Source: a virus
Lineage: Duplodnaviria; Heunggongvirae; Uroviricota; Caudoviricetes
Reading direction: 5' to 3' (one strand)
DNA: 10,266 bases
Virus record (IMG/VR): IMGVR_UViG_3300028991_000027
Location: 1-10,266 of that record
Part shown: positions 4,108-10,266 of the stretch, piece by piece
Numbering within the stretch: position 1 is the first letter of the stretch
Layout of the letters: each line of letters begins with the position of its first letter
Translations under genes and position numbers: made by a program
Notes under the pieces: model-generated
The model's database searches: none
What the model saw: the letters and a program-made list of their open reading frames with translations, nothing else
Told to the model about the DNA's origin: nothing

Positions 4108-4263
4108 TTACTTCTCAGATTCGTAGTCTACGAAGACAGCGACCTCCGTCTGGCCGGTTCGGATTCGTACCTCGCAGAGGTCTTTCCTCGTTACCAGTGC
4201 CGTCACTATGACGGTTAAACAGATGACGATCAGGGCGATTAACATCGCCTTTTGCTGCTTCAT
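4108..4263 (-). CDS. hok: Hok/Gef-family type I toxin (51 aa membrane peptide)
   Basis: Translated by hand from the minus strand: MKQQKAMLIALIVICLTVIVTALVTRKDLCEVRIRTGQTEVAVFVDYESEK. It is shorter than the ORF-track cutoff. Hydrophobic N-terminus and the TRKDLCEV...GQTEVA core match the Hok family. Confidence 0.9.
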   Translation of the reverse strand: MKQQKAMLIALIVICLTVIVTALVTRKDLCEVRIRTGQTEVAVFVDYESEK

Positions 4264-4321
4264 AGTCTGCTTCTCCTTGACCTTTCGGTCCGTAAGAGGC
4301 TAACCTACGTTTGTGAAGCAT
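4115..4321 (-). CDS. mok: mok-like overlapping reading frame (68 aa) upstream of and overlapping hok
   Basis: ORF 4115..4321 begins with ATG 58 nt upstream of hok and overlaps it in another frame, as mok does in hok/sok loci. The protein itself is low-complexity; the call is positional. Confidence 0.4.
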   Translation of the reverse strand: MLHKRRLASYGPKGQGEADYEAAKGDVNRPDRHLFNRHSDGTGNEERPLRGTNPNRPDGGRCLRRLRI

Positions 4322-4380
4322 AGATTGGGCCTCAGATTAATGTTAAGCGTCTTGCAGGACGCGTAATGTTAACTGGGGCT
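4290..4380 (+). ncRNA. sok: possible sok-like antisense RNA region (position inferred, boundaries not defined)
   Basis: In hok/sok loci the antisense RNA overlaps the mok start on the opposite strand. Here I find only a weak plus-strand promoter candidate (TTGACC 4277-4282, poor -10) and a small hairpin GCGTC-ttgcag-GACGC at 4347-4362. It may be degenerate. Confidence 0.2.
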
Positions 4381-4439
4381 TTTCTCTGTCTGCCTTACGG
4401 CGGCATGCCCGAGGCAGACAGCCTCAGGCACCCGCAGCA

Positions 4440-6158: not shown

Positions 6159-6884
6159 TCACTTTTCCGACACAATACGACCGGATGAATCGACAATCTG
6201 CCGAACAATATCCCGGTGCTTGTTCAACTCCCGCAACGCGGCACAGACTCGTTCCCACTTCTGGACATCACTTTTCGCCCGGCGCAGCTCGCGGTTAGCC
6301 ACATGCAGCGATGGTAGAATCAGGTCATCTGCTTTCGTTTCGGTGACCGATGGCTGTAACTTCACAATGTCTTCCACGATTTCTGTTTTCATTTCTTCCT
6401 GTGTCGTCGTTTCCTGGACTGGTAACGCAACACCTGCTGGCTGAGGAAAGGCTTTACCATCGGTTTCCGCTACGGATGCCGCTTCCGGCTCTGCCGGTAA
6501 ATCAGCGCCCGGTATGCAGTAACGAAATTTACCGCCCTGATTCACGCGAATCAGACGCCCTTTGCTGATTGCCATTGCCAGCGATGAATTCGCCCGGCGG
6601 GAGGTAATTCCGAACATCAGTGCCAGTTCATCCGCCGTTTGTGGGCCATGTTGTTCAATCGCCTCTGTCAGCATTTGCGCTGTCACTTTCGGTACCGGTG
6701 ACACCGGTTCACTTTCACCAGCCTGAGTCAGCCACCACATCGACCCCTTGTTATCCGCTTCACCGCGGCGCTTCAGTTTCCACAGTTCGTTGACCGCCTC
6801 TTCACGGCTGATTCCAAGGCGCGATGCCACTACCTGTGAAGAGGCTTTTTTCAGTGCTTTCAGTGCGTCAAATACGGTTTCCAT
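6159..6884 (-). CDS. phage protein with two N-terminal winged-helix-like domains, acidic linker and C-terminal coiled coil (241 aa from ATG 6884)
   Basis: ORF 6159..6902; the ATG at 6884 with GGAGG upstream is preferred over the TTG at 6902. Two HTH-like segments ([27 protein letters not shown] and [28 protein letters not shown]). Sits directly after the DnaC-like gene. Function unknown. Confidence 0.6.
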
Positions 6885-6905: not shown

Positions 6906-7652
6906 TTACTTCACAACCCTCTGATTGCTGACATTTGGACGCCAGCTATCCCAGTTAAACGTCACCCATCGACCACCGTTCATGGTCATGCGGTCCATAA
7001 TCCTCTCACCGAGAAGCGTACTCATTGCGGCATGATTCAGGTTTGTTAACATCCCGACACTGCACAGTGATGCTGTCCGGCGATCAATTATCTGGTGCAA
7101 TACCACCTGCTCGTTTTTCGTCTCACGCTGAACGCCTATTTCATCCAGGACCAGCAAATCAACCCCGCAAAGCTCCTGTAAAAATTTTTCCCCGGACTGG
7201 CCGTTGTCGTAGCTGTCATGCAACACACTCATGACGTCAGACACGGTGACGATAATCACGCTGCTCCCCTTCGCCATCAGCCGGTTGCCCATCGCCGCTG
7301 CAAGGTGATTTTTCCCGGTGCCGGTTTTACCGCTGAACACAAAATTCGTGCACCCGGTCATCAGTTCGTCAGCGATGGATTTTGCCTGGCTCAGCGCGTG
7401 TTTTTGCCCGTCGTTCTGCACCTGATAATTCGCAAACGAGCATTTGCTGTGCAGAGGCTGGATGCCCGAACGATTCAGGATTTTTTCCACCCGCAACTGG
7501 CGATTCTGGCGGTTAATCTCCTCGCTGCGTTTTCGTCCTTCAGCAAGCTGCCATTCCCGCCACTCCTCCACCGTCCGGTACGGTGGAACCGCCCCCTGTG
7601 GTGCAAGTCTGCGAATACGTTCAAGAACCCCGGCTGCCGCAATGTTTTTCAT
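6906..7652 (-). CDS. DnaC-family helicase loader (phage replication protein P analogue, 248 aa)
   Basis: Walker A FVFSGKTGTGKNHLAAA, Walker B DLLVLDEIGVQ, and a C-terminus (MLTNLNHAAMSTLLGERIMDRM...FNWDSWRP) close to E. coli DnaC as recalled. ATG at 7652. Confidence 0.9.
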   Translation of the reverse strand: MKNIAAAGVLERIRRLAPQGAVPPYRTVEEWREWQLAEGRKRSEEINRQNRQLRVEKILNRSGIQPLHSKCSFANYQVQNDGQKHALSQAKSIADELMTGCTNFVFSGKTGTGKNHLAAAMGNRLMAKGSSVIIVTVSDVMSVLHDSYDNGQSGEKFLQELCGVDLLVLDEIGVQRETKNEQVVLHQIIDRRTASLCSVGMLTNLNHAAMSTLLGERIMDRMTMNGGRWVTFNWDSWRPNVSNQRVVK

Positions 7653-7658
7653 GCCACG

Positions 7659-8627
7659 TCACCCCCTGAATCCAGGCGGTATTTCAGTGTCCGGTTCAGA
7701 AATGTGATTCACGCAACGCTGCGCGGGCGAACGCCCCAGGCGGATAACCAGTTCATCCCATTTTTCCCGGAGTTTTGCCGGACTCATGATGTTTTTTACC
7801 CAGAACGAATCCCGCTGGACACGCCCAAACATTTCACAAATCTGCCGGTGACTACGTCCATCCAGCATACGCATCATGCGCACATCATTCGCCCAGGTCG
7901 TCCAGTTAGGTTCTCGGGGGCGTGACACCTCACCATCATCACTGGCGGCCTGTTCATACAACGCCACAACCCGTCCCCAAATCCACTGCGCACAGGCGAC
8001 ATCCTCACGGGTACCCCACTGTCGCTTCGGTACATTCCAGGTATGCGCATCCGGGTGTTTCTCCAGAAATCGCTCAACTGGTGATGATTGTTTTTCGTCC
8101 GGCAGTGAAACGTCCGGACAAGAAGATCTTTTATCTGACGGATCAGGTTTTAATACTGACGGATCGGGGTCAATCATCGCCCCCCTAATCGGCAGTTTTT
8201 TATCAACCGTTGATCCATCAAAATTTGACGGGTCAACCGTTGAGGGGTCAATATTTGACGGGTCAACTGTTAACGGGTCATTTTTTGCCGGGCTAATTTT
8301 TCTTTTCGGTTTATATGACTCACGCGCCGCCGCCGCAGCTGCTTCGAGTTTTTCCACATTAAGCCGATAGATATTGCTTACATTACGCCCACCGACCTTA
8401 CGCTCTTCCTTCGTCAGCCAGCCCTCTTTCGCCAGTTCTGCAATAGCCGATTTCACGGTGGATTCACTTCTTGCACCGATCTGACGCCGGATAGTTTCAA
8501 TGGCAGGCCATGACACGCCCTCGTCATTGCTGTAGTCTGCTAGACGGGCCATCACTGCCACCCGGGATAAGATCATGCCGGTGAAGGCGCATCCTTCCCA
8601 GACAAGACCATGAAGCTTGCTGCTCAT
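7659..8627 (-). CDS. replication initiator, lambda O-like (N-terminal winged-helix domain, repeat-encoded linker, C-terminal domain; 322 aa from ATG 8627)
   Basis: ORF 7659..8642; the ATG at 8627 preceded by GGGGG is preferred over the GTG at 8642. It lies immediately upstream of the DnaC-like gene, and the iteron repeats fall inside its linker (DPLTVDPSNIDPSTVDPSNFDGSTVD), as in lambda O. Confidence 0.75.
   Translation of the reverse strand: MSSKLHGLVWEGCAFTGMILSRVAVMARLADYSNDEGVSWPAIETIRRQIGARSESTVKSAIAELAKEGWLTKEERKVGGRNVSNIYRLNVEKLEAAAAAARESYKPKRKISPAKNDPLTVDPSNIDPSTVDPSNFDGSTVDKKLPIRGAMIDPDPSVLKPDPSDKRSSCPDVSLPDEKQSSPVERFLEKHPDAHTWNVPKRQWGTREDVACAQWIWGRVVALYEQAASDDGEVSRPREPNWTTWANDVRMMRMLDGRSHRQICEMFGRVQRDSFWVKNIMSPAKLREKWDELVIRLGRSPAQRCVNHISEPDTEIPPGFRG
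8137..8320. repeat. iteron-like direct repeats plus AT-rich tract: putative origin of replication inside the O-like gene
   Basis: A 20-bp repeat TTTGACGGGTCAAC(C/T)GTT(G/A)A at 8224-8243 and 8254-8273. The GGGTCA core recurs at about 15-bp spacing (around 8166, 8230, 8244, 8260, 8275), with GACGGATCA variants at 8137 and 8158. An AT-rich stretch follows at 8281-8320. Confidence 0.6.
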
Positions 8628-8649
8628 AAAACCCCCGAACACCGTGCTT

Positions 8650-9075
8650 TTAGTGCATCACCACAGCATTCCCTGCCGGGCCGCCGCGATTCATCTGGTC
8701 ATACAAAACAACCGCTGACGCAACAAAATCGTCGACATCCTTCACCAGCCGATCCCGCCGTTCGACGATCTCACGGTAATACTCAGAACTGTGGCTGCGC
8801 ATACGGGCCACCAGCAAAGGCGGCATCGCCTTTTCGATCGCTGGTAACAGAGCCTGAATTTTTTCAACAGCATCAGGGGTGTCTTTATCCAACCAACGGA
8901 AAATTTTCTGGGTATTACGGGCCAGGGCTTCCGGATGACTGTCGTCGTACAGTTCCGGGAACGTCATCCCCAGCTCGAAATACGCTTTGGTAATTTTCGC
9001 AGCCGGTACTTTTTCGCCGTCCGGATGCGCCCAGGCATTCATCGCCATGCGGATGTGCTCATGCTTGATTTTCAT
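8650..9075 (-). CDS. YdaT-family protein (141 aa), second gene of the cro-side operon
   Basis: Complete ORF beginning MKIKHEHI...; ATGA overlap with the cro-like stop. Family assignment is from remembered similarity to Rac YdaT. Confidence 0.65.
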   Translation of the reverse strand: MKIKHEHIRMAMNAWAHPDGEKVPAAKITKAYFELGMTFPELYDDSHPEALARNTQKIFRWLDKDTPDAVEKIQALLPAIEKAMPPLLVARMRSHSSEYYREIVERRDRLVKDVDDFVASAVVLYDQMNRGGPAGNAVVMH

Positions 9076-9299
9076 GAATCACTCTTCCTTTCGCTCTGAG
9101 TGGTATCCTTCTTTTTGTAAAGCTCTGGGTTCAAAGATAATTTTCCCTTGGAGTATGCAGCAGCTTCCGCAGCTCTCCCTTTCGGAACTATTTCACCGGG
9201 GCGCTTACGCCACATGTAAATAGCTTCGCGGGTTATCCCATAAAAATCAGCGACCCTCTGAACAGAGCCAAAAAACTGAACAAGTTCATCAACTCGCAT
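9072..9299 (-). CDS. Cro-like HTH regulator, YdaS family (75 aa)
   Basis: ATG at 9299 preceded by AGGAGG. HTH segment VADFYGITREAIYMWRKR. Divergent from the CI-like gene across the operator region. Confidence 0.75.
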   Translation of the reverse strand: MRVDELVQFFGSVQRVADFYGITREAIYMWRKRPGEIVPKGRAAEAAAYSKGKLSLNPELYKKKDTTQSERKSDS

Positions 9300-9312
9300 T
9301 TCATCCTCCTAA

Positions 9313-9379
9313 AATCTAAGTATTTTTAGATTACAGGATAATTTTTTTTAGGTCAATGCAATCTAAAATAATTTATATT
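9313..9379. promoter_or_regulatory. OR-like operator/promoter region between the cro-like and cI-like genes
   Basis: O1 AATCTAAgtatttTTAGATT (9313-9332) and O2 AATCTAAaataatTTATATT (9360-9379). Minus-strand PR candidate: -35 TTGACC (plus 9351-9356), 17-nt spacer, -10 TAATCT (plus 9328-9333) overlapping O1. Plus-strand PRM candidate: -10 TATATT (9374-9379) overlapping O2, with a poor -35. Confidence 0.6.
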
Positions 9380-9395
9380 CAACTCGCGGGAGAAA

Positions 9396-10043
9396 ATGAT
9401 GGAAAGCCTTGGCATCAGGCTTAAGAAACTCAGAAAAGATAAGGGACTCACCCAAGTAGAACTGGGTAAGCTTTCAGGCGTGACCGGGGTTACTATAGGG
9501 TACTGGGAGAAAGATCTAAACGAACCCGGCAGCAAAGCTCTAAGTAAGTTAGCCCAAGCATTAGGAACTACTGAGTCCTATCTCCTGTATGGAGTATCGT
9601 CTCCTGAACTATCTTTTGTGCAGAGCAATCCAGGCACCAAGATCCCCTACTTTTCGTGGGGTGACGCGATTTCTTTCCTAATCTTAGAAGGAGAGAAAAC
9701 AATGGGAAATGTCGATAGGATCACCACATTCTTTGATGTAGTGGAAGGTGATTTTGCCGTTTCAATGCCTGATGACACTATGCATAACCCCTCAGGGTCG
9801 CCAAGTATCCCAGTTGGTGCCACTGTGATCCTAAGACCAGGAGAAAGTTATAAAAATGGCAGTATCGTCGCTGTAATAGTTCCAGATCCTCTTACAAATG
9901 AACCGTCTATGACTATAAAAAAATTAGTTATTGATGGAAAACTTGTGTATTTAAGCCCTCTCAATCCGCGCTATCAATCATCCTTGCTTACGCCAGAGTG
10001 TAAAATTGTTGCCGTAGCAAAAGGTGTACAGTTCAACCTATAA
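9396..10043 (+). CDS. CI-type prophage repressor (N-terminal HTH, C-terminal S24 LexA-like peptidase domain, 215 aa)
   Basis: HTH GLTQVELGKLSGVTGVTIGYWEKD. C-terminal domain contains candidate Ser and Lys motifs (GDFAVSM, IKKLVIDGKLVYLSPLNPRY). Divergent from the cro-like gene and flanked by operator-like sites on both sides. Confidence 0.85.
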   Translation: MMESLGIRLKKLRKDKGLTQVELGKLSGVTGVTIGYWEKDLNEPGSKALSKLAQALGTTESYLLYGVSSPELSFVQSNPGTKIPYFSWGDAISFLILEGEKTMGNVDRITTFFDVVEGDFAVSMPDDTMHNPSGSPSIPVGATVILRPGESYKNGSIVAVIVPDPLTNEPSMTIKKLVIDGKLVYLSPLNPRYQSSLLTPECKIVAVAKGVQFNL

Positions 10044-10064
10044 CCCTGCCATGTTCTTGAACTT

Positions 10065-10092
10065 AAGGTCGGTTATGTCGACCTTTTTTTTA
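10065..10092 (+). terminator. rho-independent terminator after the cI-like gene
   Basis: AAGGTCG-gttatgt-CGACCTT followed by TTTTTTT, 22 nt after the stop codon. Confidence 0.65.
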
Positions 10093-10110
10093 AATTAATT
10101 TAGATTCCTC

Positions 10111-10139
10111 TTGACTATAAAACTAAATACTTTTAGATT
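10111..10139 (+). promoter_or_regulatory. PL-like promoter with OL-like operator, directed rightward out of the window
   Basis: -35 TTGACT (10111-10116), 17-nt spacer, -10 TAGATT (10134-10139). Operator AAACTAAatacttTTAGATT (10120-10139) matches the OR consensus at 6 of 7 and 7 of 7 half-site positions; another TTAGATT sits at 10100-10106. Confidence 0.5.
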
Positions 10140-10235
10140 TGTTGTATACCAACCCACCCCGCTCCACAGAACGTCGGGCAATACCTCGAGTTACCCGGCA
10201 GTGGTCAGGGGTTAAGTAGCCAGCCCGAGGCGTAT

Positions 10236-10266
10236 GAACATGACGGCGGGAACACTTTGTATAACA
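10236..10266 (+). CDS. 5' end of an unidentified plus-strand gene running off the right edge
   Basis: ATG at 10236 preceded by GAGG 4 nt upstream, about 95 nt after the PL-like promoter. Only 10 codons (MNMTAGTLCI) are visible. Confidence 0.2.

What the first reader, a model, noticed from the sequence alone, without database searches (positions are those of the whole stretch)
8650..9299. YdaS/YdaT-like pair sits in the Cro/CII position
The small HTH protein and the 141-aa protein after it occupy the positions of Cro and CII in an operon driven from a PR-like promoter, directly upstream of the replication genes. My recollection is that these families have been discussed both as a toxin-antitoxin pair and as lysis-lysogeny regulators. 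The context here fits a regulatory role.
Basis: partly seen in the sequence, partly recalled or inferred. Interest (0 to 1): 0.35.

Follow-up and report, generated by a model that had tools for sequence, protein, structure and literature searches.

The report
Prophage Cro and CII-like YdaT switch genes
These two small genes are the Cro-type and CII-type regulators of an ordinary E. coli lambda-like prophage. The second protein is almost identical to one already crystallised and shown to switch on repressor synthesis, so the pair is a known lysis-lysogeny module and not a toxin-antitoxin system.

Summary
On the minus strand a 75-aa HTH gene (9072-9299) overlaps by ATGA a 141-aa gene (8650-9075). 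They lie between a divergent cI-like repressor (9396-10043) and O-like/DnaC-like replication genes.

The family labels are half right. The 141-aa protein is a true YdaT: it passes Pfam PF06254 and is 139/141 identical to CP-933P YdaT (PDB 8BT1). The 75-aa protein fails the YdaS model and passes P22_Cro.

The regulatory reading is correct and already published. CP-933P YdaT is a non-toxic tetrameric activator that binds TTGATTN6AATCAA across its own start codon and turns on an antisense PRE-like promoter. The window keeps that box at 9065-9082 with one change, at a position that also differs between Rac and CP-933P.

Two results are new here:
- Near-identical YdaT is joined, exactly at the box, to at least 12 unrelated upstream HTH genes. 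That argues against a cognate toxin-antitoxin pair.
- In all 12 cassette types, and in two Klebsiella phages, a TAnnnT hexamer lies 20-22 nt beyond the box. This suggests a box-proximal, class II-type PRE promoter.

Verdict: already known, low interest. The promoter geometry is a modest testable refinement.

The parts
9396..10043 (+). cI-type prophage repressor, 215 aa. N-terminal HTH_3 domain and C-terminal S24/lambda-CI-like domain.
   Evidence: Pfam HTH_3 47.8 bits and Peptidase_S24 41.2 bits. phrog_4 transcriptional repressor, E=3.4e-32. PDB matches to the P22 C2 N-terminal domain and the lambda CI C-terminal domain.
9313..9379 (.). OR-like operator region. Contains AATCTAAGTATTTTTAGATT (9313-9332) and a related copy at 9357-9379. 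A further copy lies at the OL/PL region, 10119-10139.
   Evidence: the repeat finder families D3, I2, I3 and I5. The assignment as operators is inference from position.
9328..9356 (-). PR-like promoter for the cro-ydaT-O-P operon: TTGACC, 17-nt spacer, TAATCT. It is followed by AGGAGG and the cro ATG at 9299.
   Evidence: Read directly from the sequence. It was not called by the consensus scan, because the -10 matches only 3 of 6 positions. Inference.
9072..9299 (-). Cro-type small HTH regulator, 75 aa, P22_Cro family.
   Evidence: Pfam P22_Cro 38.3 bits, above the 30.2 cut-off. YdaS_toxin 16.2 bits, below the cut-off of 30. phrog_409 transcriptional regulator. Best PDB relative is N15 Cro 2HIN, E=2.8e-4. 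No BLASTP alignment to CP-933P YdaS or Rac YdaS.
9065..9082 (.). YdaT box (OM): TTGATTTTCATGAATCAc. It spans the ydaT start codon and the cro stop codon.
   Evidence: One mismatch to TTGATTN6AATCAA. Identical to the footprinted CP-933P site except for the last base. The equivalent base is also different in the functional Rac box ATGATTCATGAAAATCAA.
9101..9109 (+). Predicted extended -10 (TGG TATCCT) of a YdaT-dependent PRE-like promoter. It would read antisense through cro towards cI. Predicted start is about 9116-9119.
   Evidence: It lies 21 nt after the box. A TAnnnT hexamer sits at offset 20-22 in 12 of 12 unrelated upstream cassette types and in 87 of 88 unique junction sequences. Other offsets average 0.52 of 12. 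The same arrangement is seen in K-12 Rac and in two Klebsiella phages. Function is inferred; no transcription start has been mapped.
8650..9075 (-). ydaT, the CII-analogous transcriptional activator, 141 aa.
   Evidence: Pfam YdaT_toxin 42.7 bits, above the cut-off of 21. phrog_163 CII-like activator, E=3.5e-48. 138/140 aligned residues identical to PDB 8BT1, E=9.7e-92. 139/141 identical to the CP-933P-type locus.
7659..8642 (-). Replication initiator, O-like. It starts 7 nt after the ydaT stop.
   Evidence: phrog_391 replication initiation O-like, E=3.4e-106.
6906..7652 (-). DnaC-like helicase loader, in the position of lambda P.
   Evidence: NCBIfam PRK12377 507 bits; phrog_50 DnaC-like loader.
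10065..10139 (+). Terminator-like hairpin after cI (10065-10085 plus a T run). PL-like promoter TTGACT-17-TAGATT (10111-10139) overlapping an operator copy.
   Evidence: Promoter/terminator scan and repeat D3.

Best explanation
The pair is the Cro gene and the CII-analogue gene (ydaT) of the immunity region of an E. coli lambdoid prophage.

After infection or derepression, the PR-like promoter transcribes cro, ydaT and the O-like and DnaC-like replication genes as one operon. Cro acts at the OR-like operators. YdaT, a tetramer with a POU-like HTH domain, binds the 18-bp inverted repeat that spans its own start codon (9065-9082). It switches on an otherwise silent promoter pointing the other way. 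That transcript runs antisense through cro and on into the cI-type repressor gene, which favours establishment or maintenance of repression.

What is shown for near-identical or homologous proteins in the literature: DNA binding to this box, tetramer formation, activation of a reverse promoter, and lack of toxicity of the CP-933P protein.

What is shown here:
- near-identity of the protein to the characterised one;
- presence of the box;
- mosaic pairing of YdaT with unrelated Cro-type genes;
- a conserved -10-like hexamer 20-22 nt from the box.

What is inferred: the window's promoter fires at about 9116-9119, with the box centred near -42 to -44 (class II-type activation).
For: Identity: the protein is 139/141 identical to CP-933P YdaT / PDB 8BT1. 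The two substitutions (A14V, I73M) lie outside the recognition helix, residues 50-63, described in PMC9986795.

Family: Pfam and PHROG assignments.

Binding site: the box is at 9065-9082. It sits inside a 30-nt stretch (9052-9081) that is identical between the window and K-12 Rac, although the two proteins are only 32% identical.

Published function:
- YdaT activates PRE933P and is not toxic (PMC8630535).
- Footprint and ITC on TTGATTN6AATCAA (PMC9986795).
- In Rac, YdaT gives box-dependent 29-fold activation of racR-direction transcription, and CP-933P YdaT cross-activates (PMC11879457).

Context: cI-like repressor, operator repeats, and O-like and DnaC-like genes.

Promoter geometry:
- The published PRE933P reporter fragment starts only 18 bp upstream of the box, so the promoter must lie at or after it (primers).
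- TAnnnT is found at offset 20-22 in 12 of 12 cassette types, with TGn in 6 of the 12.
- Klebsiella phages with 54% and 34% identical YdaT have the same arrangement.
- No terminator-like site lies on the plus strand between 9116 and the cI start.

The same immunity cassette (about 94% identity) occurs in GenBank phage records vB_EcoS-689R5 and vB_EcoM-606R7.
Against: Nothing was measured for this locus itself.

- The last base of the box differs from the CP-933P consensus (AATCAC, not AATCAA).
- The predicted -10 (TATCCT) is weak, and there is no -35.
- The Rac study assigns activation to a predicted promoter about 190 bp from the box, not next to it.
- The structural paper describes the box as lying downstream of PRE933P and as containing a transcription start. 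That does not match my geometry.
- The Rac YdaT homologue is toxic when over-expressed, through host rcsA. Harmlessness of the window's protein is therefore extrapolated from the CP-933P orthologue.
Confidence: 0.85

Rival explanations
1. The pair is a type II toxin-antitoxin module, with YdaT as toxin and the small HTH protein as antitoxin, as the Pfam names imply.
For: Pfam names the families 'Bacterial toxin ydaT' and 'Bacterial toxin YdaS'. Over-expressed Rac YdaT causes filamentation and death (PMC11879457 abstract). Older reports called the Rac proteins toxins.
Against: - The CP-933P protein, 139/141 identical, showed no toxicity.
- Rac toxicity is explained by transcriptional activation of rcsA, not by toxin chemistry.
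- The first gene is not even in the YdaS family.
- YdaT proteins at least 96% identical to the window's are fused at the same nucleotide to at least 8 unrelated upstream genes. Across the wider YdaT family there are 12 cassette types, from the P22_Cro, YdaS, HTH_3 and HTH_17-like families. A cognate toxin-antitoxin pair would be expected to travel together.
- The pair has no promoter of its own. It sits inside the PR operon between a repressor gene and replication genes.
Confidence: 0.03
2. YdaT activates repressor-direction transcription from a distance. The target would be a conventional sigma-70 promoter well inside the cro-type gene, like PracR4 about 190 bp from the box in Rac, rather than a promoter next to the box.
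For: This is the interpretation given for Rac: BProm-predicted TTGACG/TACGCT within ydaS, and a reporter that depends on the box. The YdaT tetramer has two DNA-binding faces and could loop DNA.
Against: - As far as the text I read shows, the Rac reporter contains the box-proximal region as well. The start site was not mapped, and the PracR4 -35 mutant was not combined with YdaT induction.
- The CP-933P PRE fragment ends about 100 bp after the box and still responds to YdaT.
- In the window the consensus scan finds no plus-strand promoter-like site between 9083 and 9299.
- The only feature conserved across the unrelated cassettes is the TAnnnT at 20-22 nt.
Confidence: 0.2
3. YdaT acts mainly as a repressor or roadblock. 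By sitting on its own ribosome-binding site and start codon, it would shut off ydaT and the downstream replication genes.
For: The box covers the ydaT start codon and abuts its Shine-Dalgarno sequence. The structural paper calls YdaT a 'repressor'. Rac YdaT also binds over the PydaST promoter.
Against: In Rac, ydaT-direction expression barely changed across the YdaT induction range, whether the box was intact or mutated. CP-933P YdaT had no effect on the PR, PRM or PL reporters. This effect could coexist with activation.
Confidence: 0.1

Closest known systems
YdaT of cryptic prophage CP-933P / Sp12, E. coli O157:H7 (PDB 8BT1; PMC8630535, PMC9986795)
   Same: The protein is 139/141 identical. 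It has the same 18-bp box over the start codon, apart from the last base. It holds the same position between a Cro-type gene and an O-like replication gene.
   Different: Everything on the cro-cI side of the box (higher window coordinates) is swapped.
- Here the Cro is P22_Cro-type and unrelated to CP-933P YdaS.
- The repressor is a 215-aa HTH + S24-like protein, not the 124-aa PaaR2.
- No paaA2-parE2 toxin-antitoxin genes follow the repressor.
- The -10 candidate is TGGTATCCT instead of TACAAT.
YdaS/YdaT of the Rac prophage, E. coli K-12 (PMC11879457)
   Same: Same gene order. The same box spans the ydaT start codon, within a 30-nt stretch of identical DNA. There is box-dependent activation of repressor-direction transcription. 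A TATGAT lies 20 nt after the box.
   Different: YdaT is only 32% identical. Rac YdaS is a true YdaS_toxin family member at 107.7 bits and is unrelated to the window's Cro. Rac YdaT has extra sites in the racR-ydaS intergenic region and at host rcsA, and is toxic when induced. None of that was tested for this allele.
Lambda Cro / CII / PRE
   Same: Same logic and layout. A divergent repressor gene faces a cro - cII - O - P operon. The activator's site overlaps the start of its own gene. The activated promoter is antisense to cro and reads into the repressor gene. The activator is a tetramer.
   Different: There is no sequence membership: no Pfam Phage_CII hit. YdaT has a POU-like HTH and 222 symmetry and binds an inverted repeat. 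CII binds the direct repeat TTGCN6TTGC. Here cro and ydaT overlap (ATGA), so there is no room for a tR1-type terminator between them.
P22 Cro / N15 Cro family (Pfam PF14549)
   Same: The 75-aa protein passes the P22_Cro model. Its best solved relative is N15 Cro, 2HIN.
   Different: The similarity is low (E=2.8e-4 over 42 residues). Its operator specificity is unknown.

Membership tests
YdaT family (Pfam PF06254; CII-analogous activators of lambdoid phages) | Sequence match to the family model above the curated threshold | tested here: met
   42.7 bits against a cut-off of 21. phrog_163, E=3.5e-48.
YdaT family (Pfam PF06254; CII-analogous activators of lambdoid phages) | N-terminal POU-like HTH domain plus a long C-terminal helix that forms a tetramer | tested here: met
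   Met by near-identity to the crystal structure 8BT1: 138/140 aligned residues, full length. Architecture is described in PMC9986795. No new model was built.
YdaT family (Pfam PF06254; CII-analogous activators of lambdoid phages) | Conserved recognition-helix Arg-Trp (Arg60/Trp61; Rac R57/W58) | tested here: met
   R60 and W61 are invariant in the alignment of the window, Rac and four other homologues. Their roles are described.
YdaT family (Pfam PF06254; CII-analogous activators of lambdoid phages) | TTGATTN6AATCAA-type inverted repeat spanning the gene's own start codon | tested here: met
   9065-9082, 11 of 12 specified bases. The variable base also varies between Rac and CP-933P.
YdaT family (Pfam PF06254; CII-analogous activators of lambdoid phages) | Activates a reverse (PRE-like) promoter towards the repressor gene | not testable with these tools
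   Shown for CP-933P and Rac. Here there is only the conserved -10-like hexamer.
YdaS family (Pfam PF15943) | Sequence match to the family model above the curated threshold | tested here: not met
   16.2 bits against a cut-off of 30. No BLASTP alignment to Rac YdaS or CP-933P YdaS.
P22_Cro family (Pfam PF14549) | Sequence match to the family model above the curated threshold | tested here: met
   38.3 bits against a cut-off of 30.2, covering profile positions 4-59 of 60. N15 Cro is the best PDB hit.
Type II toxin-antitoxin pair | Toxin and antitoxin are inherited together as a cognate pair | tested here: not met
   YdaT at least 96% identical to the window's is joined to at least 8 unrelated upstream genes. 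There are 12 cassette types from four HTH families across the wider YdaT family. Homology to the CP-933P type ends at 9081.
Type II toxin-antitoxin pair | Toxicity of one protein specifically neutralised by the other | not testable with these tools
   Literature only: the CP-933P orthologue is not toxic. Rac YdaT toxicity is transcriptional.
Lambda CII family (Pfam Phage_CII) | Sequence membership | tested here: not met
   No Phage_CII hit at E<=0.01. It is a functional analogue only.

The most novel reading that the evidence does not exclude
The YdaT-dependent PRE promoter may be a box-proximal, -35-less, class II-type promoter in every YdaT-carrying lambdoid element. Its -10 would sit 20-22 nt beyond the YdaT box, with the box centred near -42. 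The -10 would therefore be supplied by whichever unrelated cro-type cassette has recombined onto the box. This differs from the published placement in Rac (a predicted promoter about 190 bp away). It would also explain why the mosaic joint falls exactly at the edge of the box, and why the first eight ydaT codons and 30 bp of DNA are frozen between proteins only 32% identical.
Probability: 0.55. Interest if true: 0.3.

Novelty: already known. Interest (0 to 1): 0.12.

Why it matters
The main value is for annotation. The protein is still labelled 'toxin YdaT' or 'Rha family regulator' in databases, and matches to the pair occur in more than half of complete E. coli genomes (3045 of 5426). Correctly calling it the CII-type lysogeny activator, and its partner here a P22-type Cro, prevents false toxin-antitoxin calls.

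The comparative result gives a cheap, sharp experiment to fix where the YdaT-dependent promoter actually starts. The current papers leave that open or place it differently. The result is a fixed box-to--10 spacing across unrelated cassettes, with a recombination joint at the box edge.

Tried and rejected
- Other YdaT boxes. I looked in the window and in the 26-kb UTAK-6 prophage region for equivalents of lambda PI or PaQ. Only chance-level 2-mismatch hits turned up. The perfect palindrome CTGATTCACGCGAATCAG at 6537-6554 has no TAnnnT 20-22 nt away on either side, so I do not propose a function for it.\n- Wider taxonomic sampling. The genome-contig scan with a YdaT alignment returned only 7 loci, all Escherichia or Shigella, or contigs in MAGs labelled Collinsella and Nanosynbacter. 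It added little.\n- mEp237 CII-like protein. It shows partial similarity only and has no recognisable box at its start, so it was left out of the comparison.\n- Published PRE933P hexamers. I tried to read them from Table S1 of PMC8630535, but the held file contains only the caption. I used the primer sequences instead.\n- Secondary YdaT half-site. I considered whether the conserved TAnnnT could be a secondary half-site (ATCA/TGAT core). By eye only about half of the cassette types have such a core there, whereas all have TAnnnT. I therefore prefer the -10 reading. This was not tested formally.\n- Rfam. The scan found no RNA family in or next to the pair.

Full report
**What is there**

The window is the early-right region of an E. 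coli lambdoid prophage, lying on the minus strand. It is 99.3% identical over 8400-10266 to the chromosome of strain UTAK-6. There the element sits next to ompW, with integrase, excisionase, exonuclease and dicB on one side and Q, RusA and DUF968 on the other.

The gene order on the minus strand is as follows:
- a divergent cI-type repressor at 9396-10043 on the plus strand (HTH_3 + Peptidase_S24-like);
- a 75-aa HTH gene at 9072-9299;
- a 141-aa gene at 8650-9075;
- an O-like initiator at 7659-8642;
- a DnaC-like loader at 6906-7652;
- then DUF1627, DUF977, DUF4406, Ea22-like, hok/sok, a BOF protein, DUF968, RusA and a Q antiterminator.

The two genes of the finding overlap as ATGA.

**Family assignment**

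The 141-aa protein passes Pfam YdaT_toxin (42.7 bits, cut-off 21) and PHROG 163 'CII-like transcriptional activator' (E=3.5e-48). Against the PDB it matches 8BT1 at E=9.7e-92, with two substitutions in 140 residues, and 3C4R at E=6.8e-81. Against a CP-933P-type locus that carries the paaR2 / relB-like / parE-like genes, it is 139/141 identical.

The 75-aa protein does not pass YdaS_toxin (16.2 bits, cut-off 30) but passes P22_Cro (38.3 bits, cut-off 30.2). Its best solved relative is N15 Cro. It gives no BLASTP alignment to CP-933P YdaS or to Rac YdaS. The label 'YdaS/YdaT-like pair' is thus half right: this is a P22-type Cro followed by a true YdaT.

**What is already known**

Casjens (2003) and Jobling (2018) argued from gene context that Rac YdaS and YdaT are the Cro and CII equivalents.

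Jurenas et al. (mBio 2021, PMC8630535) showed for CP-933P that YdaS and YdaT are transcription factors and not a toxin-antitoxin pair. YdaT was not toxic, and it switched on an otherwise silent reverse promoter, PRE933P.

Prolic-Kalinsek et al. (2023, PMC9986795) solved the structure. It has a POU-like HTH domain and a long helix that forms a tetramer. They footprinted a 25-bp site containing TTGATTN6AATCAA at the ydaS/ydaT junction.

Wons et al. (NAR 2025, PMC11879457) found the same box in Rac, ATGATTCATGAAAATCAA, over the ydaT start codon. They reported box-dependent 29-fold activation of racR-direction transcription, cross-activation by the CP-933P protein, and toxicity of Rac YdaT through host rcsA.

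**The binding site in this window**

The box is at 9065-9082: TTGATTTTCATGAATCAc, one mismatch. The changed base is the outermost base of the cro-side half-site. On the coding strand that position is T in CP-933P, A in the experimentally functional Rac box, and G here.

The window and Rac share 30 identical nucleotides (9052-9081) around the box, although their YdaT proteins are only 32% identical. The first eight codons (MKIKHEHI) are invariant in the alignment. The two amino-acid differences from 8BT1 (A14V, I73M) lie outside the recognition helix, residues 50-63.

**Mosaic structure, and why it argues against a toxin-antitoxin pair**

Alignment with the CP-933P-type locus shows near-identity (two mismatches) up to 9081, and no similarity from 9082 onward.

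I collected 309 loci that carry the ydaT start: the window, UTAK-6, K-12 Rac, the seven genome-contig loci and four scans of viral contigs. They contain 88 distinct junction sequences, which fall into 13 clusters of upstream sequence. One cluster is a single locus interrupted by an insertion, leaving 12 intact cassette types.

The upstream genes of these cassette types belong to several HTH families:
- YdaS_toxin: Rac, CP-933P and two others;
- P22_Cro: the window and three others;
- HTH_3;
- an HTH_17-like protein.

Among loci whose YdaT is at least 96% identical to the window's, at least eight cassette types occur. A protein exchanged this freely among unrelated partners at a fixed nucleotide does not behave like the toxin of a cognate pair.

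In complete E. coli genomes the 650-nt query matches in 3045 of 5426. Only 471 carry most of both genes.

**Where the YdaT-dependent promoter probably is**

The published PRE933P reporter fragment begins only 18 bp upstream of the box and ends about 100 bp beyond it. This follows from primers F-PRE and R-PRE mapped onto the CP-933P-type sequence. The promoter must therefore lie at or after the box.

All 12 intact cassette types have a TAnnnT hexamer starting 20-22 nt after the box when read towards the repressor gene. This holds for 87 of 88 unique junctions. Any other three-offset window averages 0.52 of 12, with a maximum of 3. Six of the 12 also have TGn immediately upstream, the extended -10 motif.

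The hexamers themselves differ: TATGAT, TAGCCT, TAACGT, TAGTTT, TATCCT, TACAAT, TATGCT, TAACTT, TACGAT and TAAGTT. Apart from the window and its closest type, the intervening 20 nt are dissimilar. Shared ancestry is therefore an unlikely explanation.

K-12 Rac has TATGAT at 20 nt. Two Klebsiella phages with 54% and 34% identical YdaT have TAGCAT at 20 nt and TATCAT at 21 nt.

In the window the element is TGG TATCCT at 9101-9109. That predicts a start at about 9116-9119 and places the box centre near -42 to -44, the geometry of a class II activator. No terminator-like site lies on the plus strand between there and the cI start codon, and a good terminator follows cI.

This step is inference. 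It differs from the Rac paper, which attributes activation to a BProm-predicted promoter about 190 bp away. It also differs from the structural paper's wording that the box lies downstream of PRE933P and contains a start site. As far as I could read, neither paper mapped the YdaT-dependent start.

**Rest of the switch**

The 96-bp cro-cI intergenic region holds copies of an AATCTAA-N6-TTAGATT motif, and a further copy overlaps a PL-like promoter after cI. A PR-like promoter (TTGACC, 17-nt spacer, TAATCT) can be read upstream of cro.

The repressor resembles P22 C2 in its N-terminal domain and lambda CI in its C-terminal domain.

**Verdict**

The only additions here are:
- the correction of the first gene's family;
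- the sequence-based argument against a toxin-antitoxin pair;
- the fixed box-to--10 spacing, which suggests a box-proximal promoter.

Interest is low.

Noticed in passing
window 4108-4433 (minus strand): A genuine type I toxin-antitoxin module lies in the same operon. It consists of a Hok/Gef peptide gene (4108-4263; Pfam HOK_GEF 81 bits) and the sok antisense RNA (4261-4433; Rfam RF01794 103.9 bits).
   Followed up: partly
window 9396-10043: BLASTP against lambda CI aligns a Thr (in DDTM) with the catalytic Ser149. Lys192 is conserved, and I see no Ala-Gly in the linker. A Ser five residues upstream (AVSM) could be the real nucleophile. Whether this repressor self-cleaves with RecA is unclear.
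   Followed up: partly
window 6537-6554: A perfect 18-bp palindrome, CTGATTCACGCGAATCAG, lies inside the DUF1627 gene. It is built from the CTGATT half-site variant that some natural YdaT boxes use. It is present in 15 of the fetched loci, but no -10-like hexamer lies 20-22 nt away on either side. My own estimate of the chance expectation for a 2-mismatch hit in 10 kb is about 0.4.
   Followed up: partly
window 9052-9081; L083 about 1667-1696: Thirty nucleotides around the YdaT box are identical between this prophage and K-12 Rac, although the YdaT proteins are 32% identical. The first eight codons are invariant across the family. In the one cassette aligned directly (CP-933P type), the mosaic joint falls at the edge of the box. 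This suggests DNA-level constraint, and perhaps a recombination linker.
   Followed up: partly
L110, about 20 nt after the YdaT box: One viral-contig locus has foreign DNA inserted exactly between the box and the expected -10 position. The sequence begins TGAACCGCCCCGGGAATCCTGGAG. From memory it looks like the end of an IS3-family element; this was not verified.
   Followed up: no
L084 and L089 (genome contigs): Short contigs in MAGs labelled Collinsella sp. and Candidatus Nanosynbacter carry E. coli-type ydaT (87% and 32% identical to the window's). They are probably bin contamination by E. coli prophage DNA.
   Followed up: no
protein clusters P0001-P0120: Public names for this one protein family are inconsistent: 'Rha family transcriptional regulator', 'toxin YdaT family protein' and 'Phage regulatory CII'. 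The window's protein gives no hit to any Pfam family other than YdaT_toxin.
   Followed up: no
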